A stretch of DNA of 64,000 bases from Escherichia phage vB_Eco_F31, in the sequence record OP870147.1; one strand, 5' to 3'. The translations under genes and the position numbers were made by a program. Below are positions 22,425-33,442 of the stretch, piece by piece. The number at the start of each line of letters is the position of its first letter. Position 1 is the stretch's first letter. The notes under the pieces were generated by a model that ran no database searches, was not told the origin of the DNA, and saw only the letters and a program-made list of their open reading frames with translations.

Positions 22425-23589
22425 CGAAATCTTCCATTTCGTCAAGGTCGTTTTCTATATCTGCTGCAGACGGAGCATCAGAAGTTTTAACCGGAACTTT
22501 AGTTGTTGCTTTGCAATTAATAAGGTCGTTAACAGCGTCATCAACTTCTTTAATAGAAGAGATAGCACCTAGTTTATATTTAGTTTCAATTGCATCTCGG
22601 AAAGGTTTGTGTTTAAACAACGGTCCCCAGAATTCTACACAATCAGTAGCTTTAGCACGCCATGATTTTTCTTCACGAATCATTTCGCCTGTTTCTTCGT
22701 CAAGGAATTCGCGAGCATACCACCCGGCTTTAGGCTTAACTACAAAACCAATTTCAGTTGCCATTTCTAACAAGCCACTGAACGGGTCGATACCACCATC
22801 GAAATTAACCGTGATCGGGAAAGTAGATTTCTCTTTAACCGTGCGAGATTTTTCTGCTTTCAACGTGAAGTCATAACCGGTCAATTCTGTACCTTCTTTA
22901 ACCTGACGTTTAGAGATAAAGAATACAGTGTTAGCAGAGTAAAGAATACCTGTACCACCACCCATAATCTCTTTAGGATATAGTCCGCCGATTTCCATTG
23001 CTGTATGGTTGATTGCAACACACGGAATATCTTTAATAGTCAGATAAGGAGTCACAATACGGAACAGAGATTTAAGTGCCTTAGCACGAGACATATCACC
23101 TACGACTTTCTCGTTCAATGCATCTTCGGTTTCTTTCTTAGATGCAGTATTACCGATTGAATCGATAAAGATAATAACTTTATCACCCCGTTCAATCGCG
23201 TCAAGCTGATTAGTCATATCAACTTTAAGTTGTTCGACGGATTGAATCGGAGTATGAACTACACGGTCTAAATCAACACCCATTGAACGAAAATAAGATT
23301 CTGAAGCACCGAATTCCGAATCATAGAACAAACAGATTGCATCTTTATATTTCTTCATATATGCTGCAACCATGGTCAGTCCAAACAATGTTTTAAAATG
23401 TTTAGAAGGTGCAGCAAAAATAGTCAAGCCTGATTGCAATCCTGCATTCAGAGCACCACCTAGTGCGATATTCAACATCGGAATACGAGTAGGGACTTCA
23501 TCACGATTATTAAACAGCTTAGACTTAGTCAAGTCTGCAGTCATTTTAGAAGTAGAAGCTTTAATCAGACGAGATTTTAAATCAGACAT
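22417..23589 (-). CDS. uvsX: UvsX recombinase (RecA-like)
   Basis: 390 aa; RecA fold motifs; acidic C-terminus; T4 UvsX is 391 aa. Confidence 0.85.
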   Translation of the reverse strand: MSDLKSRLIKASTSKMTADLTKSKLFNNRDEVPTRIPMLNIALGGALNAGLQSGLTIFAAPSKHFKTLFGLTMVAAYMKKYKDAICLFYDSEFGASESYFRSMGVDLDRVVHTPIQSVEQLKVDMTNQLDAIERGDKVIIFIDSIGNTASKKETEDALNEKVVGDMSRAKALKSLFRIVTPYLTIKDIPCVAINHTAMEIGGLYPKEIMGGGTGILYSANTVFFISKRQVKEGTELTGYDFTLKAEKSRTVKEKSTFPITVNFDGGIDPFSGLLEMATEIGFVVKPKAGWYAREFLDEETGEMIREEKSWRAKATDCVEFWGPLFKHKPFRDAIETKYKLGAISSIKEVDDAVNDLINCKATTKVPVKTSDAPSAADIENDLDEMEDFDE

Positions 23590-23599
23590 TGTATTTTTC

Positions 23600-23650
23600 C
23601 ATAGGCATCATTATATTTTACTCATGTTTAAAAGATAAGACGATTATATA
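23600..23650 (-). promoter_or_regulatory. putative middle promoter upstream of uvsX
   Basis: ATGCTGTAT (MotA-box-like) about 11 nt upstream of TATATAAT on the minus strand. Confidence 0.3.
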
Positions 23651-23687
23651 CTAAGGGTTATACAGCATTTAAAACTTTAAATGGCTC

Positions 23688-24236
23688 TTAACGAGCCCAT
23701 TTGATGATTTCTGTAATCAAACCATTACGTTCGCTTGCATTAAATCCTATAACTTTGTTAGCACCATCATGATTAAGTAATTGATACGTTTGGATTTTGT
23801 TATGAATTGCAAACTCTTCAAAATGTGAAATGACTGTATTAAAACCGAATGAAGACAAAGTAATAAGGTCGTCTTCAAAACTTTCAGTCATTTCGTTACG
23901 TGTTAAAATAATTGTGAACACATCATGGTTTTGGCAAAGACGAACATAATCCTGCTCATAAACATCAAGAACAGAGGCCGCATCTTGTCGAATACGTCCA
24001 TAAACCCAGTTACTAATATATCCACGGTCTAACAGATAAATCTTAGTAGGGTCTAAATAATTCAACATCGTTTCGAAACAACCAACTTCATTTCGAGACT
24101 TAACATCGAAACGTCCATCAACTGTTCGTTTAGGGAAATCAATCTTTACATATCTTTCACTAATTTCCATTATGTCATTAATGAAAGTTGTTTTACCGGC
24201 ATTATCCGGGCCATCTACTAAAATAATTTTAGCCAT
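23688..24236 (-). CDS. P-loop kinase (NMP-kinase-like fold), substrate unknown
   Basis: 182 aa; N-terminal Walker A ILVDGPDNAGKTT; occupies the T4 beta-gt locus. Confidence 0.55.
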   Translation of the reverse strand: MAKIILVDGPDNAGKTTFINDIMEISERYVKIDFPKRTVDGRFDVKSRNEVGCFETMLNYLDPTKIYLLDRGYISNWVYGRIRQDAASVLDVYEQDYVRLCQNHDVFTIILTRNEMTESFEDDLITLSSFGFNTVISHFEEFAIHNKIQTYQLLNHDGANKVIGFNASERNGLITEIIKWAR

Positions 24237-24237
24237 T

Positions 24238-25137
24238 TTATTCCTCGATTACGACATCTTCGTATTTAGGTATATTATACGGCGAAGAAATTAAAGCATT
24301 AAAGTAGATGAACTCACCAAGACCTGGATGGAATACTTCTTCAGGATTTTCGAAATATTGAATCTTCGGACGTCCTTTAAGAATTTGATAGTACTCAGTT
24401 TTAGTTGGTTTAAAAATTCTAATCAACGCTTCTTCAGGATACTTATTTCTGTCAAAGCTACTATTTGGATCAGTTATATAAAGCGGTTGACCTAATTGAA
24501 TTGCACATTCAACCACTTGTTCAAAACGATAGCACGGGTCACTAATTCGAAATGGATGAAAAATACCATCTAGATGAATAGGAGCCAAATCACCTACAAG
24601 ACGCTGCATGATGGAAGGACGTATAACTTTCTGAGTTACGATAATCTTATTACCATCTGCACCTGCGTTAACCAGCACTTCTTTTTGACGTTCATTCAAC
24701 ACAGTAGTTTGAAGTGAACGATTAACTGACAACATATCGGTTTTTAAGAATTCGTCAATATAAAAACGTGGTTTATTAGGGTCTGCCGTGATATTGAAAT
24801 TGAATTCTACATCAAAAGCGCCGTCATATCCAGTGATATCTGTTATTAGAAAATCACAATCATAATAAGCAATTAATGAATCAACCACAAATTCATTTTC
24901 AGACCAGAAATATTTACGAGTGTTATACGCGTTATCTTTATACCATAATGGAACAAACTTAAATTCCGGGAAAAGACGTTCACATTCTTTAATATCAGAT
25001 GCATTACGTGGATATGTAATCACATCACCTGGATTAGCACGGTGCAAATGAAGTTGGAAGTTGCCATCCTTAAGGATAGCATACTGTCCAGTTTCATAAG
25101 ACCGCATACTCAAAATAGGTACGCGGAAAATAGCCAT
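24238..25137 (-). CDS. hypothetical protein at the beta-glucosyltransferase syntenic position
   Basis: 299 aa; no motif I can assign; 1-nt gap to the kinase and 1-nt overlap with gene 42. Confidence 0.5.
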   Translation of the reverse strand: MAIFRVPILSMRSYETGQYAILKDGNFQLHLHRANPGDVITYPRNASDIKECERLFPEFKFVPLWYKDNAYNTRKYFWSENEFVVDSLIAYYDCDFLITDITGYDGAFDVEFNFNITADPNKPRFYIDEFLKTDMLSVNRSLQTTVLNERQKEVLVNAGADGNKIIVTQKVIRPSIMQRLVGDLAPIHLDGIFHPFRISDPCYRFEQVVECAIQLGQPLYITDPNSSFDRNKYPEEALIRIFKPTKTEYYQILKGRPKIQYFENPEEVFHPGLGEFIYFNALISSPYNIPKYEDVVIEE

Positions 25138-25853
25138 TAGTCAAGGAATCCTTTAACATAATCAAAATCACGTTCAAACACATGGGCACTTACCATGGTA
25201 TGAGTATAATCACCAACTTCTACACCGCATTCGTTAGCGATATAATGAAGTAATTTTCCTTGGAGATAAAAATCCAACTGCATAACAACAGCACAGTTCT
25301 GAGAACGCATATGACAGTGGGTATAAAGCTTACCATCACGAATATAATAAGTCACTGAGTCAGTACATGGATATTCAAGCGTTTCGTCTGAATCAAGCAA
25401 AGCCTGATCAGAACTTTCTAGAATTTGGAACACAACTCTTCGGGAGTTAGGCTTCTCTTTAAGTTCTTTTAGAAGAGCTGGTAATTGGGCCACAATGCGA
25501 GGACCGTAGAAAGTGTTGAAGTTTGCAGGCAAAGCGTCTGATTTAGGTTTAGAAATAAATTTAGCGACATTAGGATATGCCTTAAACGCTTCTTCTGCAT
25601 CAGTACCACCAGAAATCATAAACTTCCAGAAGTCTTCGGCATATTCATAAGAGATGCGGTTAATACGTGGGTCGGTCATTTTGAATGTTGACGGAGTGTC
25701 AACAACTACTGTCATAGACCCAATTTCATTACAACGTCCAATACGAGAATCAGTTACGAATTCCGGGTTTTCTAAAATTTCACGATTGACTGCTTTAAAT
25801 GCGGCTTGAAAATCTGCGGCTTTGATATATTTCATTGTGTTATGTTTTCCCAT
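25137..25853 (-). CDS. 42: dCMP hydroxymethylase (thymidylate-synthase fold), gp42-like
   Basis: 238 aa; YPCTDSVTYYI (catalytic Cys) and RSQN motifs parallel T4 gp42. Confidence 0.65.
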   Translation of the reverse strand: MGKHNTMKYIKAADFQAAFKAVNREILENPEFVTDSRIGRCNEIGSMTVVVDTPSTFKMTDPRINRISYEYAEDFWKFMISGGTDAEEAFKAYPNVAKFISKPKSDALPANFNTFYGPRIVAQLPALLKELKEKPNSRRVVFQILESSDQALLDSDETLEYPCTDSVTYYIRDGKLYTHCHMRSQNCAVVMQLDFYLQGKLLHYIANECGVEVGDYTHTMVSAHVFERDFDYVKGFLD

Positions 25854-25895
25854 GTTTACCTCAATACAATTTATTATATACTCGATTCGTAAAGC

Positions 25896-26135
25896 TTATT
25901 TGAATTTCTTGGCAGTGTTGATATACCGTAAAGCTTCAGCATCGATACTTCCAAGAACACTATGAAGAAATGCATCAGCGTAGTATTCCAATTGAACAGG
26001 TTCTTTAATCACTTTAGCCGCTTTGGTTTCAAACAGGCCCATAAGGGCCTTTTTAAGAATTTGTTCGTTAGTGTTCAGTTTAATAGTCAAAATCTCTTCG
26101 TTAAGTTTATAATTAAAACTTTTTCTAGAAATCAT
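25896..26135 (-). CDS. hypothetical protein
   Basis: 79-aa ORF. Confidence 0.4.
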   Translation of the reverse strand: MISRKSFNYKLNEEILTIKLNTNEQILKKALMGLFETKAAKVIKEPVQLEYYADAFLHSVLGSIDAEALRYINTAKKFK

Positions 26136-27292
26136 TCCGGGTACCTCAAAGCGTCATCAGAGTTAGTTATATCAATAATAGATATAGAGTTTTCTGCTAA
26201 CCCGTTTTTAGATAATTGACGTTTATAATACCTTTCACAATATGTACACGTTGACCCACAGATTTCATTAGCACAATCAAAATCTGGATGTCTGAACCAC
26301 CTTTTTTCTAAAAAGCCATCTAACAAAGAGGTTTCAATATTTACTGTATGTGAAAACTCAGTTTCATTTTCAAGAGTGAAAATAGTCTCTAAAGGCTTCC
26401 ACAGTTCTAACAAATTACCTTCAAACTTTTCAGAAGCGTATGCTTCAAGAACTTTCAAAATGTAGTCTGTGCTACCTGTACGTCCTGAAACTTTGAATTG
26501 AGTGATACCGATATCATTATAAAGTTTCAAATCTTGAGGACGAACAAAACGAGTTCTCAACCAGTTAAATGGGTCTGTATCACGAGCTTTAATGCAGTGT
26601 TGCATTGGATACCCGTTTAAGGATTTAGCATCATCAGCTGTAACATCAGTACTATGGAAAATATAGCAAGAGTCACGATAGCTACAATGTGTTGTATACC
26701 CTTTACCAGCATTAGAACAGAACTCATTTACAAGAACTTCAAATATTATATTGTTCTTATTGCAAAACTCTGCTGCACGCTTCAGGAAAGAAACTGAACG
26801 GTTCTTATGAATTCCACAGCAGACCTTTTTGATATTGTATTGGTCATGTAAGTATTTGATTTGAGTTACAGCATCGACATGTAGAATTGTTGAAACTTCA
26901 ATCTCAATGTCTTTATTGACTTCACGAACAATTTCCATAACAACAGGGTTAGCGATAGTAATACGCCATACGCCTATTGACCAAAGATACTGAACATAAT
27001 CCTGAATAGCTTTCTTCTTCCACTCGACTAGTTCTCTTTTTGAACCAGGATTTATCGTGTTGAGTGTATAGTTAAAGCAAATACCTAATTCGTTACAACG
27101 TTTAACGTAATCTTCTAACATCTTTTTGTCAACGTCAGGAAGCCTAAAATCAGGTCTGGCTGCTACAAAAGCCATTTCTCTTGTAGAGCCGTATACTTCG
27201 TTTATCAAGCTATTAGGATAAGTTTTATTGAGCTCTACGATTTTATCAAGAAGAGCTAAATCAAAATTCGTTCCGATTTTAAAAGTATTCAT
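26132..27292 (-). CDS. Cys-rich putative Fe-S enzyme (possible U32-peptidase-like TIM-barrel family)
   Basis: 386 aa; central NEFCSNAGKGYTTHCSY and C-terminal CANEICGSTCTYC (CX3CX3CX2C) clusters. Confidence 0.4.
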   Translation of the reverse strand: MNTFKIGTNFDLALLDKIVELNKTYPNSLINEVYGSTREMAFVAARPDFRLPDVDKKMLEDYVKRCNELGICFNYTLNTINPGSKRELVEWKKKAIQDYVQYLWSIGVWRITIANPVVMEIVREVNKDIEIEVSTILHVDAVTQIKYLHDQYNIKKVCCGIHKNRSVSFLKRAAEFCNKNNIIFEVLVNEFCSNAGKGYTTHCSYRDSCYIFHSTDVTADDAKSLNGYPMQHCIKARDTDPFNWLRTRFVRPQDLKLYNDIGITQFKVSGRTGSTDYILKVLEAYASEKFEGNLLELWKPLETIFTLENETEFSHTVNIETSLLDGFLEKRWFRHPDFDCANEICGSTCTYCERYYKRQLSKNGLAENSISIIDITNSDDALRYPE

Positions 27293-27351
27293 TTTTTTTG
27301 CATCTCGCGTTAATTGATGCGATGGTTTTTTTGCAGGTCTTACTTAAATTA

Positions 27352-27738
27352 TTATAGGTTCGGTTTATATGATTTAAATGTTTCGAATTCGCCTTTATTC
27401 ATAAGAGCTTTGAATTCGTCAGGACGCATAGCTTTGTCGTCGATAATCCAATCATATACTGGTTTATGTGTTAGCAAATTATGGTACTTCAAGCCAATGT
27501 TTGCCAAGTTCTGAATCAGACTTGGGAGAATGTCAATTGCTATACGACCAGGACCTACTGACTTCATACCGCGCGCAGTGTAAAGCGTTATGGTATGCCC
27601 TGCATCATACAGGGCATTAATGGCAGACACCATTTCGACGTCCGGTTTGAAGTTCACGTAATCACGATTGTTATTCCACTCTGTTATACAATCATCGACA
27701 TCAAAACAAAGATTAAGCATGTTTTCTACACGATGCAT
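27352..27738 (-). CDS. HAD-superfamily phosphatase
   Basis: about 128 aa; HAD motif I FDVDDCIT near the N-terminus; start overlaps the upstream stop (TAATG). Confidence 0.55.
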   Translation of the reverse strand: MHRVENMLNLCFDVDDCITEWNNNRDYVNFKPDVEMVSAINALYDAGHTITLYTARGMKSVGPGRIAIDILPSLIQNLANIGLKYHNLLTHKPVYDWIIDDKAMRPDEFKALMNKGEFETFKSYKPNL

Positions 27739-29423
27739 TAGATTCGTTCCCATTGATGAGTGATATCGCCACCGATTGGACGATAGGAAACACCAGTTTC
27801 TTTATCAGTTAGTACCCATTTACCAGGATTTTTTGTAATCAGAGTAGCCGTTACAGGTTCTGCTACGTCATAACTAATAGAGCCGTCTTGAAGTACACGG
27901 CCCATGTTACGTAATTGCTTAGTCAGAAGTTCCATACCTTTATAATATGCGGCTACCGCTTTAAGTGGATTATTCTTGAAATAACCACCTAATGCAATCC
28001 AGATAATTGCCACTGCCAAATGATGATACTCGTTAAACGAACTCATCTTTCCATATTTGTAAACTAATGGATTGATGTTAATAGTCACATTACAAGTTGT
28101 TTCATCAATAGTAAACTGTCCCCAGGTCGGATTAGCGTTGAATTCATCATAACCTGAAACAGCGTAAAGCACTTTAGCTTCATCGTACAATTTTGGCCCG
28201 TAAATCTTAGTTTCACCAAAATATCCACGAGGGTCGATAAACTTGACTTCGCCATTATCAGTAATCATAGTATTACTGAAGTTCGGGTCACCATGAATAA
28301 CAGAGTACTGTCCCTGAGAACGGTTATGATAACGAATAAGGTGTTCTAAAGCTTGTTTCAGCATTGGCTTCAGACGTCCAATCTTAGTGTAGTTCACGTG
28401 TGTGATTTTACCAAATGAATCAATCAATGGTTGAATGCTTTCACAACGATCAATAACTTTCGTATAGAATTCTTTAGTGAAATCACGACGGACAGTTTCA
28501 GGACTTACAAAATAAGTGTCTGTGCTGAATTTCAGTGCATCTAAAATTGCATCAACAATTTGTGGACGAGCAAGACTTGATTTGGATTTAATATATTCAA
28601 ATGCCGGCTTACCTTTAATGCGTTCCATTTCAAAGTTATTTTCATTAACAGAAACTAACTGAGGAACTGAATCTGATTTCACTTTAAGATACCATGAAAT
28701 CTCATCTTTCTGAAGAGCTCGACCCTGTTCGGTTAATGCGAATTTAGTTACAGTTTCTTCACCAATTTCAACTGCATTAAAACTACGATTAAGTTCACGA
28801 ACTTCATGAGCTTTTTCAAGTTTAGGCATATCACCTAAATCAATTAGATTCATAAGCTCTGATTTATTGAATGCGCTGCCGTAAAGGAATTCTACGAAAT
28901 CACGTCCTTTGCAGTATTCATGAATTTCCTCATCAGTAGAACCCATGTAGAATTCCCAGTCTTTAAACTGATAAATTCCTACAACATTACCGCCTGTTTC
29001 ACCTACATTAGTGATATTTTCACCATCGAAATTATACCGACATTCATCACCCTTAACATAGATTGCGTTAACATTCCAAGACCATGAACCAAAATCGGGA
29101 ATAATATCACACCAGTTAACAATTACGTTATGGCCGTCTAAATCTTTGTGTAATTTAGCAAGAGCATAAGCAGAACCATACGCTTCATCAACTGTACGAA
29201 TAGTCACATTGAACCCTTCTTGCTCACAATAAGCTCGAACAGTTTCAGCAAATTTTGAATGAACTACTACAATAATTTCATCTGCGCCAAGGTCAGAATA
29301 AATTGTATACAAATTGCTCAGAATAGTGTCTTGTTTATAGTTAACAAGCACCTTAGGAATATGATGCGTTATTGGATACAAACGAGTTGCCAGTCCAGCA
29401 CCAAGAATAACAGCTTTTTTCAT
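27738..29423 (-). CDS. bifunctional sugar-1-phosphate nucleotidyltransferase (RmlA-like, N-terminal) / anomeric sugar kinase (ChoK/APH-like, C-terminal)
   Basis: 561 aa; N-terminal MKKAVILGAGLATRLYPIT (G-x-G-x-R, cf. RmlA ILAGGSGTRLYP); C-terminal VIHGDPNFSNTMI (Brenner HGDxxxxN) and FIDPRG. Confidence 0.6.
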   Translation of the reverse strand: MKKAVILGAGLATRLYPITHHIPKVLVNYKQDTILSNLYTIYSDLGADEIIVVVHSKFAETVRAYCEQEGFNVTIRTVDEAYGSAYALAKLHKDLDGHNVIVNWCDIIPDFGSWSWNVNAIYVKGDECRYNFDGENITNVGETGGNVVGIYQFKDWEFYMGSTDEEIHEYCKGRDFVEFLYGSAFNKSELMNLIDLGDMPKLEKAHEVRELNRSFNAVEIGEETVTKFALTEQGRALQKDEISWYLKVKSDSVPQLVSVNENNFEMERIKGKPAFEYIKSKSSLARPQIVDAILDALKFSTDTYFVSPETVRRDFTKEFYTKVIDRCESIQPLIDSFGKITHVNYTKIGRLKPMLKQALEHLIRYHNRSQGQYSVIHGDPNFSNTMITDNGEVKFIDPRGYFGETKIYGPKLYDEAKVLYAVSGYDEFNANPTWGQFTIDETTCNVTININPLVYKYGKMSSFNEYHHLAVAIIWIALGGYFKNNPLKAVAAYYKGMELLTKQLRNMGRVLQDGSISYDVAEPVTATLITKNPGKWVLTDKETGVSYRPIGGDITHQWERI

Positions 29424-29464
29424 GTTGAAGTCCTCATTGGTAAGTAGGAGTATTGTACACTATT

Positions 29465-29608
29465 CTAGTTAAAGCATTCATACTTTGCTTGTAGTCCAAT
29501 CATAATCCATCCAATTACAAGTGTTGGAATCATTACTGGAGCCGTTAAGCTCCAGTAGATAGTCATGACAAGCATCAATAGTAAAAGTCCTATTGTTATT
29601 GCTTTCAT
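29465..29608 (-). CDS. small hydrophobic peptide
   Basis: 47-aa ORF (MKAITIGLLLLMLVMTIYW...), ATGA-coupled to the SIS gene stop. Confidence 0.3.
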   Translation of the reverse strand: MKAITIGLLLLMLVMTIYWSLTAPVMIPTLVIGWIMIGLQAKYECFN

Positions 29609-30240
29609 TGTTCGCCTCGTAACATGGCACCTAGTGCACCGCCTGGATGGAACTTAAGGAAATCATTAGAGGTAAATCCACGTTCAGACGAAAGGTTGAT
29701 AGCGAACGTATCGATAAGCGCTAACAACAATGTAGTAGACATTGTCGGAGCTAAAGAGTTCTCGTCAACTTCTACCGCGATACCGGTACAGAACGTATAA
29801 TCAAAAAGAGCTTCGTATTCTTGTGGAATGTCAGGGTTACAATGTAACAGAATCTGTTTAACCTGAGGACGAATCATACGAAGATGTTTAGCAACACCTA
29901 TCATTTCTTCAGTCTTACCAGAACGACTGATGTGAACTAATACATCATTAGGTGCAATAAATCCTGCGTCACCATGAGAATAATGCCCAGTGTTCAAATA
30001 CATGCTAGGAATACCTAGTGAAGCAAAAGTCTCGGAAGCTTTAGTTGCGATATTAGCATTCTTACCAACACCTGTAATAATTACCCGGCTTTCATAATTA
30101 CTAAGTCCAGGGCGTCGAAGAGTTTCTAGAATAGCATTATATCGGGCAGGGTTTTGACTAATTACTTTAGCCATAGTGGCAAGAGATGAAGCTTGTTTTA
30201 CGATTGCGTCAATAGCGATAGTAATAGGAGTAGTTTTCAT
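29605..30240 (-). CDS. SIS-domain sugar-phosphate isomerase, KdsD/GutQ (arabinose-5-phosphate isomerase)-like
   Basis: 211 aa; ITGVGKNANIATKASETFASLGIPSMYLNTGHYSHGDAGF parallels the KdsD SIS motif [38 protein letters not shown]; no CBS domains. Confidence 0.65.
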   Translation of the reverse strand: MKTTPITIAIDAIVKQASSLATMAKVISQNPARYNAILETLRRPGLSNYESRVIITGVGKNANIATKASETFASLGIPSMYLNTGHYSHGDAGFIAPNDVLVHISRSGKTEEMIGVAKHLRMIRPQVKQILLHCNPDIPQEYEALFDYTFCTGIAVEVDENSLAPTMSTTLLLALIDTFAINLSSERGFTSNDFLKFHPGGALGAMLRGEQ

Positions 30241-30280
30241 ATTTCTCTCATTTAATTAGTTGGCCATCCTTGGCATTATA

Positions 30281-32992
30281 TCAAAAATCAAACATATCGA
30301 ACAGAGATGCTTTCTTCTCGTAATCGAGTTTAGCTGCTGATGTGAATCCTTCAAGTGGTTTAATAAATGTCTTCTCAAGGAGAACAGTGTAGTCCATCCA
30401 ATGAAGTACATCATCTTTGATTAAATCAGTGATTTCCGTACCAGAAGGCCATGCGATACATTTATCACCGAACGGGTTTCCATCACGTAAAGGCAGAACG
30501 TATACCTTTTCGCCTTCTACAACTTGTGGAGCATCAATATTACCTTTGATAGCTCGGTTATATGTCAGAATTCCACGAATATGGAACGGGCATTTAGGTC
30601 CTGGATATCCACCTACATCATATTTAGCAATGTTATTCGCAGAAGATACCGACGCGATGCTAATATAATTCAATTGACGGAATTCTTTTTCAAACTCTTT
30701 AAAATATTCTTGTAATGATTCTTCACCTTCTTGAAGCATACGACGAATACATTCTTTAAGAGCTTTCTGTACTGCTTTAGGGGTCGAAGATTTCTGAGTT
30801 TCTAGACCCATGATTTTGAGTTTAGGCTCAGCGTAACGAGTACCTTCCATATCCCACACGTTTAATGCATAACGTTTCTTACCAGTCCAGAATCCACCAA
30901 TACCTTTAGAACCGAGCGGAGGACCCGCGATAGCTTCTCGGTCCATGAACATTAAGTGTTGTTTATTGTTCATGTATTCACACATTTCACGGAAACCTTT
31001 ATCAATAGCTGGTTCCATACGTTCACGTGCAAACTTATCTAAGAAGTCTACCCAATGGTTGGTATCACGGAATTTAGATTCACCAACCTTATCAATAATT
31101 TTATCTGCAGATACGTAAATGGAGTCTGTATCACCATATAGAACGAAAGCTTCACCTTCTGTACCACAAACTTCATTCAGATATTCATTAACTTTACGTT
31201 CAATCCACTGTAAAGCCATTTGCCCGAATGTTGTGATTGCAGTAGCATTACGCAAATCATAATAACGGAACCAAACGTTGCCAAGTGCACCATAAAGTGA
31301 GTTGATGAGCAATTTACGGTTAATTTGTGCAGTCATACCTGCAACTTCAGTACGTTGAGCTCTAAACAACATTTCGTTAAGAGATTTAGCAGACAACTTT
31401 TTAATCTTTTCTTTAATCTCATCACTGAAGTCGAAACGATAATCAACATCTAATGGTTCGTCAACAGAAAGATTAGGATTATGCAATGCCTCTTTAATTA
31501 TTTCACCATTACGTTGAGCTGCAAGCATGTAACCTTTATGTTCTTTACGTTGATTAAAGACTTTAGTGATTTCAGTTGGAACTACACCATCACGGTCTTT
31601 ATAATACATCATGCCGTTAGGAGAACAACTGTACACATCTGAAGGACGTTCAGCGATTGCGTTAATATAATCATGCAATGGAGCTACTTTAAACGTTCCT
31701 GCTATTGTTTCTGGGCTAATATTCACTTGGCGAATAATACTTGGATACAGAGATGTAAGGTCGAAACTCATTACATATTTGTATCGATTTGGAATAGGTT
31801 CCTTAACAAAAGCGCCAGGATAAGGTTGAACCGGGTGAGAACGACCTTGTGGAATCACCTTGTTCTGCTCTTTAAGGCTATTAAAAATAATAGCATCCCA
31901 TGTTTTAATTGGGCTAAACACAGATTGAATCTGTATCTTAGCATAATAACCCATGTCCAAACTCAAGTTGATGAACTGACGCTTAGCATCAATTTGCAAT
32001 ACACGATACACGTCGATAATGTTATAAGAAATATATCGTTGGTGATTGCTTTCACGAAGCTTAGAAATAGGGCCGTCATATTTCAGTTTACCAACGTTCA
32101 ATTCAAATTCTGAAATGTAATCCAGAGAATACGACGGTTGATTGGTAAAAGAGAATTTTTTGTAAAGGTCAATGTAATCAAGAACAGAGATACCGAACAA
32201 TGTAATGATTTCACGAGAACCATACATGTTTTCGATAACTTTAACACGAGTTTTACGATGTGGTGATAAACGTTTCGCAGTAGATTCGCCAAAAATATTC
32301 TTGATTCGGTTATACACATACGGAATATCAAATGACTCAACGTTCCATCCAGTCAAAATGACAGGAGTTTTCTGTTGCCAGAAGTTGAGATATTCCATCA
32401 ATAATTCTTTTTCATTATCAAACGGCATATAAACGATTTTGTCGATAATTTCGGATGGAACTTCATCACCACCTTGTTCTTGAAGCTTAGCAGCGATTTC
32501 AATAGACCATTCTTCCACATTACCATATGGAGAATTCAATAGATCAAATACGTAGAACCTGTCGTCAATTGAGTCATAATGGGTGATAGCATCAATCGGA
32601 TGTTTTGCTTGTGACGGCTCAGGGAACCCGTCCGGAGATGTTACTTCGATGTCGAAGTTAGCCACACGAATTTTTGTATGGTCGTATTTGATTTCATAGT
32701 TATAAGTGTCAGACAAATACGCCAATTTGAAATCGTCCATGCCAAGTGCTTCAAGCCCGATATCTTCCATGCGTTTAATCCATTGGGAGGCATCACGCAT
32801 ATTAGCGAACAACTTACGAGTACACGGTTTACCGTAGATATCGAAATATTTCGTAGCCTGACTTTCTGGACAATGAGCAAACAGTGATGGTTTATATTCT
32901 ACTTCACGAGTACGTTCACGGCCATTAGAATCGATGTAACGTTCAAAAATTGAATCACCAATCTGTTCAACCGTTAAGTAAAATTCTTTCAT
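30281..32992 (-). CDS. 43: DNA polymerase (family B), gp43
   Basis: 903 aa; exonuclease and polymerase motifs (FDIE, YGDTDS); N-terminus matches the RB69 gp43 sequence as I remember it. Confidence 0.95.
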   Translation of the reverse strand: MKEFYLTVEQIGDSIFERYIDSNGRERTREVEYKPSLFAHCPESQATKYFDIYGKPCTRKLFANMRDASQWIKRMEDIGLEALGMDDFKLAYLSDTYNYEIKYDHTKIRVANFDIEVTSPDGFPEPSQAKHPIDAITHYDSIDDRFYVFDLLNSPYGNVEEWSIEIAAKLQEQGGDEVPSEIIDKIVYMPFDNEKELLMEYLNFWQQKTPVILTGWNVESFDIPYVYNRIKNIFGESTAKRLSPHRKTRVKVIENMYGSREIITLFGISVLDYIDLYKKFSFTNQPSYSLDYISEFELNVGKLKYDGPISKLRESNHQRYISYNIIDVYRVLQIDAKRQFINLSLDMGYYAKIQIQSVFSPIKTWDAIIFNSLKEQNKVIPQGRSHPVQPYPGAFVKEPIPNRYKYVMSFDLTSLYPSIIRQVNISPETIAGTFKVAPLHDYINAIAERPSDVYSCSPNGMMYYKDRDGVVPTEITKVFNQRKEHKGYMLAAQRNGEIIKEALHNPNLSVDEPLDVDYRFDFSDEIKEKIKKLSAKSLNEMLFRAQRTEVAGMTAQINRKLLINSLYGALGNVWFRYYDLRNATAITTFGQMALQWIERKVNEYLNEVCGTEGEAFVLYGDTDSIYVSADKIIDKVGESKFRDTNHWVDFLDKFARERMEPAIDKGFREMCEYMNNKQHLMFMDREAIAGPPLGSKGIGGFWTGKKRYALNVWDMEGTRYAEPKLKIMGLETQKSSTPKAVQKALKECIRRMLQEGEESLQEYFKEFEKEFRQLNYISIASVSSANNIAKYDVGGYPGPKCPFHIRGILTYNRAIKGNIDAPQVVEGEKVYVLPLRDGNPFGDKCIAWPSGTEITDLIKDDVLHWMDYTVLLEKTFIKPLEGFTSAAKLDYEKKASLFDMFDF

Positions 32993-33051
32993 TTAATTTC
33001 CTTTAGACGAGTTATTGTCTTTTGTTTGTTGATGAACTTATTATACTCCAA

Positions 33052-33069
33052 ATGGGACCGAAGTCCCAT
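33052..33069 (-). terminator. UUCG hairpin downstream of regA, upstream of gene 43
   Basis: ATGGGAC-TTCG-GTCCCAT immediately after the regA stop, followed by TTTGGAGTATAAT. Confidence 0.4.
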
Positions 33070-33073
33070 TGCT

Positions 33074-33442
33074 TTAATTACCAATTGTATATTTTGCTTT
33101 CAAAGTCCAGTCATCTTTCTGTTTAAAAGAGATAACACGGAAGTTATTAGTCAGGCCAAACAGATCTTCACGAGCAGAGTCTTCAATAACAATCAATCCC
33201 CAGTCTTCAAGCAACTGAGCAATCGAATCACGTCGTTGATAGTCTTCACCATCAATATCAACTTGACGCCCGTCCATACGCAACATTTCTTTAAAGTGGA
33301 CGATGTAATATTTACCTTGCTTTTGGAGGATATGACAGGACTGATAAAGAACTTTATCCTTGTTATTAGCGATGCCCATACGGGTCAGAGTCTCTTTGAC
33401 TTTAAGAAAATCTTCAGGGTTCTTCAATTTAATTTCGATCAT
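33074..33442 (-). CDS. regA: translational repressor RegA
   Basis: 122 aa from MIEIKLKNPEDFLKVKETLTRMGIANNKDKVLYQSCHILQK, nearly colinear with T4 RegA. Confidence 0.85.
   Translation of the reverse strand: MIEIKLKNPEDFLKVKETLTRMGIANNKDKVLYQSCHILQKQGKYYIVHFKEMLRMDGRQVDIDGEDYQRRDSIAQLLEDWGLIVIEDSAREDLFGLTNNFRVISFKQKDDWTLKAKYTIGN

What the first reader, a model, noticed from the sequence alone, without database searches (positions are those of the whole stretch)
27738..29423. Unusual nucleotidyltransferase-kinase fusion that could make an NDP-sugar directly from a free sugar
The N-terminal 250 aa carry the RmlA-type G-x-G-x-R motif (AVILGAGLATRLYPIT). The C-terminal half carries the ChoK/APH Brenner motif (HGDPNFSN) and a downstream FIDPRG. 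A kinase plus pyrophosphorylase in one chain is the logic of salvage-type bifunctional enzymes such as fucokinase/GDP-fucose pyrophosphorylase, but here with a different kinase fold. It is translationally coupled to the HAD phosphatase.
Basis: partly seen in the sequence, partly recalled or inferred. Interest (0 to 1): 0.7.

Follow-up and report, generated by a model that had tools for sequence, protein, structure and literature searches.

The report
Known phage UDP-arabinose kinase–pyrophosphorylase fusion
This gene is a real two-enzyme fusion that helps an RB69-like phage make UDP-arabinose to decorate its DNA, but a 97%-identical copy has already been characterised, and it starts from arabinose 5-phosphate rather than free sugar.

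Summary
A 561-aa ORF lies at 27738-29423 on the minus strand. Its N-terminal domain is an RmlA/MurU/LicC-like nucleotidyltransferase. Its C-terminal domain is an APH/choline-kinase-fold kinase. All the quoted motifs are present and invariant in homologues down to 28% identity. The gene overlaps the start of the downstream HAD phosphatase gene.

The fusion is not new. The window is a Mosigvirus (RB69-like T-even phage). The gene is 98.2% nt identical to RB69 ORF53_52c (described 2018) and is annotated in phage Bas46 as a UDP-arabinose biosynthesis enzyme. Its product is 97% identical to the corresponding protein of phage HY126.

Lee et al. (NAR 2026), citing He et al. [quoted passage not shown] They report the HAD protein AfhF, 100% identical here and solved as PDB 9iqw, as removing one phosphate between the two steps.

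The "directly from free sugar, FKP-like salvage" reading is probably wrong. The route copies the ADP-heptose pathway (GmhA/HldE/GmhB) using different folds.

Verdict: already known, low interest.

Side observation: single-chain HAD-SIS-NT-kinase versions occur in contigs that look like giant viruses.

The parts
27738..29423 (-). Whole fusion gene (561 aa plus stop). Orthologue of RB69 ORF53_52c (gp52:53), Bas46 bas46_0146 and HY126 XAN60479.1, which I infer to be AfhE. A GAGGA Shine-Dalgarno motif lies 7 nt upstream of the ATG.
28794..29423 (-). N-terminal sugar-1-phosphate nucleotidyltransferase domain (residues ~1-210). Invariant residues: G10, R14 (GxGxR loop), K24, D106, D195-x-G197-D198, K201.
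27903..28793 (-). APH/choline-kinase-fold small-molecule kinase domain (residues ~211-507). Invariant residues: K227 (beta-3 Lys), E241, Brenner motif H377-G-D379-x4-N384, and metal-binding D397 in IDPRG. Further invariant charged residues are D314, E318, R326 and K417. K322 and K483 are conserved in at least 90% of sequences, and K488 is invariant.
27741..27902 (-). C-terminal tail of about 55 residues (508-561) with short predicted beta-strands and lower confidence (pLDDT 75-87). It is present in the phage members down to about 36% identity and absent from the shorter, more distant homologues. Function unknown.
27352..27738 (-). HAD-superfamily phosphatase (128 aa from the TAATG start; an upstream ATG at 27753 would give 133 aa). 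It is 100% identical to HY126 XAN60478.1 and to PDB 9iqw. AfhF is reported to convert arabinose 1,5-bisphosphate to arabinose 1-phosphate.
   Evidence: (TIGR01689, E 4e-13); PMC13326640
29605..30240 (-). SIS-domain arabinose-5-phosphate isomerase (KpsF/GutQ type, 211 aa). It supplies D-arabinose 5-phosphate from ribulose 5-phosphate.
   Evidence: Pfam SIS; TIGR00393 kpsF E 9e-32 and KdsD E 4e-30; PDB 3etn, 5uqi, 2xhz
25137..25853 (-). Thymidylate-synthase homologue. In RB69 and HY126 this is the flavin- and O2-dependent 5-hydroxy-dCMP synthase, not a dCMP hydroxymethylase. It makes the base that receives the arabinose.
   Evidence: (PDB 9iqc/9ir2/9iqu, ~98% identical); PMC13326640
24238..25137 (-). 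Putative DNA arabinosyltransferase (RB69 gp46:47 homologue), the consumer of the UDP-arabinose.
   Evidence: PMC13326640
23688..24236 (-). P-loop nucleotide kinase-like protein (RB69 gp45, annotated 'thymidylate kinase'). It is the last gene of the conserved module.

Best explanation
The gene encodes the Mosigvirus orthologue of phage HY126 AfhE. This is a bifunctional enzyme that carries out the second and fourth steps of a four-step de novo route to UDP-D-arabinofuranose.

1. The phage SIS isomerase (29605-30240) converts ribulose 5-phosphate to D-arabinose 5-phosphate.
2. The C-terminal APH/ChoK-fold kinase domain uses ATP to phosphorylate C1, giving arabinose 1,5-bisphosphate.
3. The overlapping downstream HAD phosphatase (27352-27738) removes the 5-phosphate.
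4. The N-terminal RmlA/MurU-like domain joins arabinose 1-phosphate to UTP, giving UDP-arabinose plus pyrophosphate.

Phage glycosyltransferases then transfer the arabinose to 5-hydroxycytosine in phage DNA, which protects it from host nucleases.

What was shown here: domain folds, catalytic-residue conservation, gene neighbourhood, and 97-100% identity to the HY126 proteins.

What comes from the literature at second hand: the substrates and the order of steps.

My own inference: phosphorylating C1 while C5 is still phosphorylated locks the sugar in the furanose ring. This would explain how an NDP-furanose is made without a mutase, and why a phosphatase is always present.
For: Identity:
- 98.9% nt to Bas46 bas46_0146, annotated 'putative enzyme involved in UDP-arabinose biosynthesis'.
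- 98.2% nt to RB69 ORF053c+052c, with one 1-nt gap that matches the known RB69 sequencing error (PMC6024577).
- 97% aa (544/562) to HY126 XAN60479.1. None of the differences falls on an invariant column.

Neighbours:
- The HAD protein is 100% identical to HY126's and to PDB 9iqw.
- The SIS protein is 98% identical to HY126's.
- The ThyA homologue is ~98% identical to PDB 9iqc, and the 9iqc sequence is 100% identical to HY126 PP658200.1.

Folds and catalytic residues.

Functional linkage:
- The gene order SIS > fusion > HAD > ThyA-like > GT > P-loop kinase is kept down to 35% identity.
- A different HAD family fills the same slot in a 350-kb phage contig.
- HAD, SIS, NT and kinase are fused into one 919-955-aa chain in other viruses.

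Reported biochemistry: PMC13326640 (section 'Computational characterization ... [quoted passage not shown]
Against: [quoted passage not shown] The activities are known to me only through Lee et al.
- I infer from position and architecture, not from the paper, that XAN60479.1 is the protein named AfhE.
- No assay exists for this exact allele.
- Table 1 of PMC13326640 lists the alternative order (phosphatase first, then kinase on free arabinose) for the RB69 proteins.
I could not check whether the invariant basic residues form a pocket for the 5-phosphate.
- Nucleotide specificity (UTP) cannot be read from the sequence.
Confidence: 0.85

Rival explanations
1. One reading: a salvage-type enzyme. 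The HAD phosphatase first strips arabinose 5-phosphate to free D-arabinose, or free sugar is taken from the cell. The kinase domain then phosphorylates free arabinose at C1 and the nucleotidyltransferase domain makes the NDP-sugar, as FKP does for fucose.
For: - Table 1 of PMC13326640 annotates RB69 gp51 as 'dephosphorylates Araf5p to Ara' and the gp52:53 C-terminal domain as 'Phosphorylates Ara to Araf1p'.
Against: - The text of the same paper, citing in vitro work on the 97%-identical HY126 enzyme, gives arabinose 5-phosphate as the kinase substrate and the bisphosphate as the phosphatase substrate.
- Free D-arabinose is mostly pyranose in solution (established sugar chemistry), whereas the DNA carries the furanose form (PMC13326640). 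A free-sugar route would need an extra way to fix the ring.
- A dedicated arabinose-5-phosphate isomerase is conserved or fused with the enzyme. That points to de novo supply rather than salvage.
Confidence: 0.1
2. The fusion activates a different substrate or uses a different nucleotide. Examples would be a LicC/LicA-like choline kinase plus cytidylyltransferase, a MurU/AmgK-like amino-sugar recycling enzyme, or a GDP/CDP-sugar enzyme.
For: - Several database records call the protein GlmU or mannose-1-phosphate guanylyltransferase.
Against: - All NCBIfam equivalog scores are far below their cut-offs, for example MurU 24.8 against 250 bits and GlmU 22 against 367 bits.
- The gene context is an arabinose-5-phosphate isomerase plus DNA-modification genes.
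- RB69 and Mosigvirus DNA carry arabinose (PMC6024577, PMC13326640, PMC13390438).
- UDP-D-arabinose is the reported product for HY126.
Confidence: 0.03
3. The C-terminal domain is a protein, lipid or antibiotic kinase, or an inactive pseudokinase, and is unrelated to the nucleotidyltransferase reaction.
For: - Weak Pfam hits to RIO1 and Seadorna_VP7.
- APH antibiotic kinases are the top Foldseek matches.
Against: - All kinase catalytic residues are invariant across the family.
- The two domains stay fused in 363 of 373 phage records and down to 28% identity.
- The structural neighbours are small-molecule kinases.
- Kinase activity on arabinose 5-phosphate is reported for the orthologue.
Confidence: 0.02

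Closest known systems
AfhE of Escherichia phage HY126, with AfhF (He et al., Nat Chem Biol 2026, as described in PMC13326640). Also known as RB69 ORF53_52c / gp52:53 (PMC6024577) and Acinetobacter phage DLP3 gp82.
   Same: - 97% aa identity to the HY126 protein and 98.2% nt identity to the RB69 gene.
- Same two-domain architecture.
- Same neighbours, with the HAD protein 100% identical.
- Same gene order.
   Different: Only 18 residue differences, including one 1-residue indel. They lie mostly in residues 228-265 of the kinase N-lobe, and none falls at an invariant position. This is simply another allele.
ADP-heptose pathway: GmhA (SIS isomerase), HldE (bifunctional heptose-7-phosphate 1-kinase and heptose-1-phosphate adenylyltransferase), GmhB (HAD 1,7-bisphosphate 7-phosphatase). 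The pathway description is established knowledge.
   Same: Identical logic, step for step:
- a SIS isomerase makes a sugar omega-phosphate;
- an anomeric kinase makes a bisphosphate;
- a HAD phosphatase removes the distal phosphate;
- a nucleotidyltransferase fused to the kinase makes the NDP-sugar.

PMC13326640 also reports GmhB-type structural hits for the phage HAD.
   Different: - Neither catalytic domain of the fusion is homologous to HldE. There is no PfkB or CTP_transf_like Pfam hit.
- The folds here are APH/ChoK and RmlA-like.
- Domain order, sugar (pentofuranose rather than heptose) and nucleotide (UDP rather than ADP) all differ.
- This is analogy, probably convergence, not family membership.
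Trypanosomatid arabinokinase/pyrophosphorylase relatives are recalled from my own knowledge.
   Same: One chain carrying a pyrophosphorylase and an anomeric sugar kinase, with the nucleotidyltransferase at the N-terminus.
   Different: - FKP uses a GHMP kinase and a Fucokinase-type nucleotidyltransferase domain. Neither is detected here.
- FKP acts on free sugar and needs no phosphatase.
- The present pathway starts from a sugar phosphate and needs one.
LicC/LicA (CTP:phosphocholine cytidylyltransferase plus choline kinase) and MurU/AmgK (MurNAc-1-phosphate uridylyltransferase plus an APH-family anomeric kinase)
   Different: - Sequence similarity is marginal, with scores far below the family cut-offs.
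- Their substrates are unphosphorylated (choline, MurNAc).
- Those pathways include no isomerase or phosphatase.

Membership tests
[quoted passage not shown] | Full-length sequence similarity to the characterised HY126 protein and to RB69 ORF53_52c | tested here: met
   544/562 identical to HY126 XAN60479.1. 98.2% nt to RB69 with the single known frameshift error. Same 90% cluster as RB69ORF053c.
[quoted passage not shown] | N-terminal RmlA/MurU-like nucleotidyltransferase domain with an intact GxGxR loop, a catalytic Lys and metal-binding Asp residues | tested here: met
[quoted passage not shown] | C-terminal APH/ChoK-fold kinase with the Brenner motif and a DFG-equivalent Asp | tested here: met
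[quoted passage not shown] | Neighbourhood with the AfhF-type HAD phosphatase, an arabinose-5-phosphate isomerase, a 5-hydroxy-dCMP synthase and a DNA glycosyltransferase | tested here: met
[quoted passage not shown] | Enzyme activities: arabinose 5-phosphate to the 1,5-bisphosphate, and arabinose 1-phosphate plus UTP to UDP-arabinose | not testable with these tools
   Known only from PMC13326640's account of He et al. 2026. The primary paper is not held.
FKP (fucokinase/GDP-fucose pyrophosphorylase) | GHMP-family kinase domain and Fucokinase-type nucleotidyltransferase domain | tested here: not met
   No GHMP or Fucokinase Pfam family at E <= 0.01. The kinase fold is APH/ChoK.
FKP (fucokinase/GDP-fucose pyrophosphorylase) | Free sugar as the kinase substrate, with no phosphatase step | not testable with these tools
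   The literature on the orthologue indicates a sugar 5-phosphate substrate and an intervening phosphatase.
HldE (ADP-heptose bifunctional kinase/adenylyltransferase) | PfkB/ribokinase-fold kinase domain and cytidylyltransferase-fold adenylyltransferase domain | tested here: not met
   No PfkB or CTP_transf_like Pfam hit. The folds found are different.
HldE (ADP-heptose bifunctional kinase/adenylyltransferase) | Pathway partners: a SIS isomerase and a HAD bisphosphate phosphatase | tested here: met
   SIS at 29605-30240 and HAD at 27352-27738. These are analogous partners only, not orthologues.
MurU / LicC equivalogs (NCBIfam) | Score above the curated equivalog cut-off | tested here: not met
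   MurU NF045761 scores 24.8 bits against a cut-off of 250. No LicC-type model is listed. All 18 listed families score far below their cut-offs.
Pfam APH (PF01636) phosphotransferase family | Score above the Pfam gathering threshold | tested here: inconclusive
   This protein gives no APH hit at E <= 0.01. Homologues P0056 (25.6 bits) and P0082 (28.6 bits) pass the 23.2-bit cut-off, and the fold match is clear.

The most novel reading that the evidence does not exclude
The AfhE-type module may be one instance of a general, mainly viral, mutase-free way of making NDP-sugars: isomerase, then an anomeric kinase acting on a sugar phosphate, then a HAD phosphatase, then a nucleotidyltransferase. 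It would reach well beyond DNA modification.

Two kinds of relative support this possibility. Single chains of 919-955 aa carry HAD, SIS, NT and kinase domains. Versions of 786-790 aa carry a cupin-type isomerase-like region after the NT-kinase core. Both lie in contigs that look like giant viruses and have no thymidylate-synthase homologue nearby. There they could supply D-arabinofuranose or other unusual sugars for virion or host glycans.

For the window gene itself, the only novel reading left is that the enzyme also accepts free D-arabinose in vivo.
Probability: 0.3. Interest if true: 0.5.

Novelty: already known. Interest (0 to 1): 0.15.

Why it matters
The pathway is interesting biology. 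A phage builds its own nucleotide-sugar, UDP-D-arabinofuranose, which E. coli does not make, in order to coat its 5-hydroxycytosine DNA with arabinose and escape restriction and CRISPR nucleases. Its logic parallels ADP-heptose synthesis but uses unrelated folds.

That story has already been published:
- Viruses 2018: the gene and the hypothesis.
- Cell Host Microbe 2025 and Nat Chem Biol 2026: the modification and the enzymology.
- NAR 2026: RB69 and DLP3.

For this window the value is correct annotation. Many GenBank records still call the protein 'hypothetical', 'GlmU' or 'mannose-1-phosphate guanyltransferase'. The HAD protein is often called 'phosphoheptose isomerase' and the ThyA homologue 'dCMP hydroxymethylase'.

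What may still be open is the use of the same module, as four-domain single chains, in contigs that look like giant viruses.

Tried and rejected
- Plus-strand translation of the given coordinates is full of stops. The gene is on the minus strand.
- The primary paper (He et al. 2026) could not be fetched. Searches for AfhE/HY126, for Mahler et al. 2025, and for a preprint found only secondary citations. No supplement of PMC13326640 is held. A 2026 XNA preprint mentioning 5-arabosyl nucleotides proved irrelevant.
- PDB sequence searches with the protein and with a family profile found only distant nucleotidyltransferases. No solved structure of the fusion exists. The GT, U32 and P-loop neighbours have no PDB relatives by sequence.
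- The promoter and terminator scan of 23500-33200 gave no more sites than shuffled sequence (29 against 36.4 ± 6.4 promoter-like; 7 against 5.1 ± 2.1 terminator-like). It says nothing about operon structure.
- The scan of 185,579 bacterial and archaeal genomes found only three loci. Two carry the complete phage-type gene module, one of them on a 167-kb T4-sized contig. The third is a 5.2-kb fragment carrying only the isomerase and fusion genes. All are probably mis-binned phage DNA, so I could not document a cellular version. The pattern-based search may miss distant relatives such as the Butyrivibrio proteins reported in PMC6024577.
- I wanted to see whether the invariant basic residues surround the kinase active site as a pocket for the 5-phosphate. 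Model coordinates are not exposed to the script environment.
- Membership in FKP, HldE, MurU/LicC and GlmU was considered and rejected on domain content or curated score cut-offs.
Full report
**What is in the sequence.**
The coordinates 27738-29423 hold a 561-aa ORF on the minus strand. The plus-strand reading is full of stops. A GAGGA Shine-Dalgarno motif lies 7 nt upstream of the ATG.

The neighbouring genes are all on the minus strand:
- T4-type DNA polymerase, 30281-32992.
- SIS-domain KpsF/GutQ-type arabinose-5-phosphate isomerase, 29605-30240.
- A 47-aa hydrophobic ORF, 29465-29608.
- The fusion gene, 27738-29423.
- A small HAD phosphatase, 27352-27738 (or from 27753).
- A peptidase-U32-family protein, 26132-27292.
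- A thymidylate-synthase homologue, 25137-25853.
- A putative glycosyltransferase, 24238-25137.
- A P-loop kinase, 23688-24236.

**Domain check.**
Pfam detects the nucleotidyltransferase domain above threshold (PF00483, residues 3-99, E 8.5e-10). The kinase half gets only sub-threshold hits.

I collected 312 homologues and aligned 39 of them, spanning 72% to 28% identity. Invariant nucleotidyltransferase residues are G10, R14, K24, D106, D195, G197, D198 and K201. Invariant kinase residues are K227, E241, H377-G-D379, N384 and D397-P-R-G400. Several further charged residues are also conserved: D314, E318, R326, K417 and K488 are invariant, and K322 and K483 are kept in at least 90% of sequences.

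The nucleotidyltransferase domain is about 210 residues rather than 250. A tail of about 55 residues (508-561) is present in the phage members down to about 36% identity and missing from the shorter, more distant homologues.

**Junction with the phosphatase.**
The minus-strand sequence reads ...GAACGAATCTAATGCAT.... The stop TAA shares one base with an ATG (TAATG). That ATG is the start annotated in RB69 and HY126, and it is the first residue of the crystallised construct 9iqw. An in-frame ATG 15 nt further upstream (27753) would give a 16-nt overlap, as annotated in Bas46. A distant 350-kb phage contig shows a 4-nt overlap at the same junction. Coupled translation is plausible but untested.

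**Identity of the window and the gene.**
The gene is 98.9% nt identical to bas46_0146 of the Mosigvirus phage ChristianSchoenbein (Bas46), annotated 'putative enzyme involved in UDP-arabinose biosynthesis'. The protein is 100% identical to one in phage vB_EcoM_KAW3E185. The gene is 98.2% nt identical to RB69 ORF053c+ORF052c, with a single 1-nt gap.

That gap matches the sequencing error reported by Thomas et al. 2018 (PMC6024577). They showed that the two RB69 ORFs are really one 561-residue protein, ORF53_52c, expressed it, and proposed a role in UDP-arabinose formation.

**What the literature says it does.**
Lee et al. (NAR 2026, PMC13326640) show that RB69 DNA carries beta-D-Araf-(1-3)-alpha-D-Araf on 5-hydroxycytosine, not on hydroxymethylcytosine. 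They also show that the thymidylate-synthase homologue is a flavin- and O2-dependent 5-hydroxy-dCMP synthase. They assign gp52:53 an N-terminal NDP-sugar pyrophosphorylase domain and a C-terminal kinase domain, using the same structural neighbours I found (4y7t, 1jyk, 3ham, 6hwl).

Citing He et al. (Nat Chem Biol 2026), they state three things about phage HY126:
- It phosphorylates Araf5P to Araf1,5P.
- The HAD protein AfhF is a Mg2+-dependent phosphatase that converts the bisphosphate to Araf1P.

I could not obtain He et al. itself.

**Linking the window to HY126.**
- The window's HAD protein is 100% identical to PDB 9iqw.
- The window's thymidylate-synthase homologue is about 98% identical to PDB 9iqc, 9ir2 and 9iqu.
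- The 9iqc sequence is 100% identical to a gene of Escherichia phage HY126, PP658200.1.
- In that genome the gene order is the same as in the window.
- The 562-aa protein at the corresponding position (XAN60479.1) is 97% identical to the window protein (544/562).
- The HAD proteins are 100% identical and the SIS isomerases 98% identical.
- None of the 18 differences falls on an invariant column.

The window gene is therefore an allele of the characterised enzyme. The one inferential step is that XAN60479.1 is the protein called AfhE.

**Independent support for the pathway logic.**
The order SIS > fusion > HAD > ThyA-like > GT > P-loop kinase is conserved in phage loci down to 35% identity (L011 and L012). 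In a 350-kb phage contig, a HAD of a different family (Hydrolase_3) occupies the same slot. In other viruses the four activities are fused, in the order HAD-SIS-NT-kinase, into single chains of 919-955 aa. Together these results argue that the phosphatase is an integral step of the same pathway as the two domains of the fusion.

**Mechanism and comparison.**
The best-supported route is:
1. Ribulose 5-phosphate to arabinose 5-phosphate (SIS isomerase).
2. Arabinose 5-phosphate to arabinose 1,5-bisphosphate (C-terminal kinase domain, ATP).
3. Arabinose 1,5-bisphosphate to arabinose 1-phosphate (HAD phosphatase).
4. Arabinose 1-phosphate to UDP-arabinose (N-terminal domain, UTP).
5. Transfer onto 5-hydroxycytosine DNA by the glycosyltransferases.

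This matches the ADP-heptose pathway (GmhA, HldE, GmhB) step for step, including the fusion of kinase and nucleotidyltransferase. The folds, however, are unrelated to those of HldE. It is not FKP-like salvage: there is no GHMP kinase or Fucokinase domain, and the reported substrate is a sugar phosphate.

My own inference is that phosphorylating C1 while C5 is still blocked fixes the furanose ring. This would explain how an NDP-furanose arises without a mutase. The LicC/LicA and MurU/AmgK pairs share the two folds, but they act on unphosphorylated substrates and score far below the family cut-offs here.

**Residual uncertainty.**
Table 1 of PMC13326640 still lists the other order for RB69 (phosphatase first, then kinase on free arabinose). 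No assay exists for this allele. I could not inspect the model's substrate pocket.

**Verdict.**
- Observation: confirmed.
- Interpretation: partly supported. The folds, the NDP-sugar product, the arabinose link and the phosphatase link are right. The 'free sugar / FKP-like salvage' idea is probably wrong, and the fusion is not undescribed.
- Novelty: already known.
- Interest: low (0.15).

The only possibly open thread is the presence of four-domain and cupin-fused relatives in contigs that look like giant viruses. There the module appears detached from DNA modification.

Noticed in passing
L003:8001-10781 (P0085); L015:8001-10760 (P0088); L014:14-2854 (P0092); protein P0091: Single chains of 919-955 aa carry HAD, SIS, nucleotidyltransferase and kinase domains in that order, so the whole ribulose-5-phosphate-to-NDP-sugar route sits in one protein. 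The contigs look like giant viruses: MutS with an HNH domain, RNA polymerase Rpb2 and Rpb10, an XRN exonuclease, and many ORFs with no Pfam hit. No thymidylate-synthase homologue lies nearby, so the product is probably used for glycans rather than DNA. One copy comes from a Ceratiomyxa (slime mould) transcriptome.
   Followed up: partly
L008:8001-10361 (P0105); also P0107, P0109, P0111: Relatives of 786-790 aa carry the nucleotidyltransferase-kinase core plus a C-terminal region. In P0105 this region has a weak cupin-type mannose-6-phosphate-isomerase match. P0105 sits beside an epimerase/dehydratase-HAD fusion and other NDP-sugar-modifying genes in a giant-virus-like contig. This may be the same pathway logic applied to another sugar.
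   Followed up: partly
window 26132-27292 (-): This peptidase-U32-family protein (Pfam E 7e-11, weak UbiU hit) is present in the Mosigvirus loci but absent from the more distant phage modules. The U32 family includes O2-independent hydroxylases (UbiU/V, RlhA, TrhP; from my own knowledge). The phage's thymidylate-synthase-like hydroxylase needs O2 and flavin. The U32 protein might therefore provide an anaerobic route to 5-hydroxycytosine in the gut. PMC13326640 lists it only as 'sugar or heterocycle reductase'.
   Followed up: partly
window 25137-25853 (-) and 27352-27738 (-): Database names for these genes are out of date. The 'dCMP hydroxymethylase / thymidylate synthase' is a 5-hydroxy-dCMP synthase (PDB 9iqc, 9ir2 and 9iqu are ~98% identical). 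The 'phosphoheptose isomerase / capsule biosynthesis protein' is the AfhF-type sugar-bisphosphate phosphatase (PDB 9iqw is 100% identical). The structure construct starts at the TAATG methionine, which favours the 128-aa form over the 133-aa ORF.
   Followed up: yes
window 27741-27902 (-), residues 508-561 of the fusion: This C-terminal tail of about 55 residues (…GRVLQDGS…TATLITKNPGKWVLTDKETGVSYRPIGG…QWERI) has short predicted strands and lower confidence (pLDDT 75-87). It is conserved in the phage members down to about 36% identity and missing from the shorter, more distant homologues, including those on the 350-kb phage contig and the giant-virus-like contigs. No function has been assigned.
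   Followed up: no
window 29465-29608 (-): A 47-aa, strongly hydrophobic ORF (MKAITIGLLLLMLVMTIYWSLTAPVMIPTLVIGWIMIGLQAKYECFN) lies between the isomerase and the fusion gene and overlaps the isomerase stop by 4 nt. It is annotated as hypothetical in Bas46 and HY126. It looks like a small membrane protein of unknown role.
   Followed up: no
L006:9557-10111 and L007:6413-6967: In a 350-kb phage contig the phosphatase slot downstream of the fusion gene is filled by a different HAD family (Hydrolase_3/Cof-like), with no detectable similarity to the window's HAD. This looks like non-orthologous displacement that preserves the step.
   Followed up: partly
L011, L012, L013 (GTDB genome bins): The only three hits in 185,579 bacterial and archaeal genomes are probably phage DNA binned into MAGs. 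L011 (a 167-kb contig labelled 'bacterium') and L012 (a 120-kb contig labelled Candidatus Izemoplasma) carry the complete phage module. L013 (a 5.2-kb contig labelled Pseudobdellovibrionaceae) carries only the isomerase and the fusion gene.
   Followed up: partly
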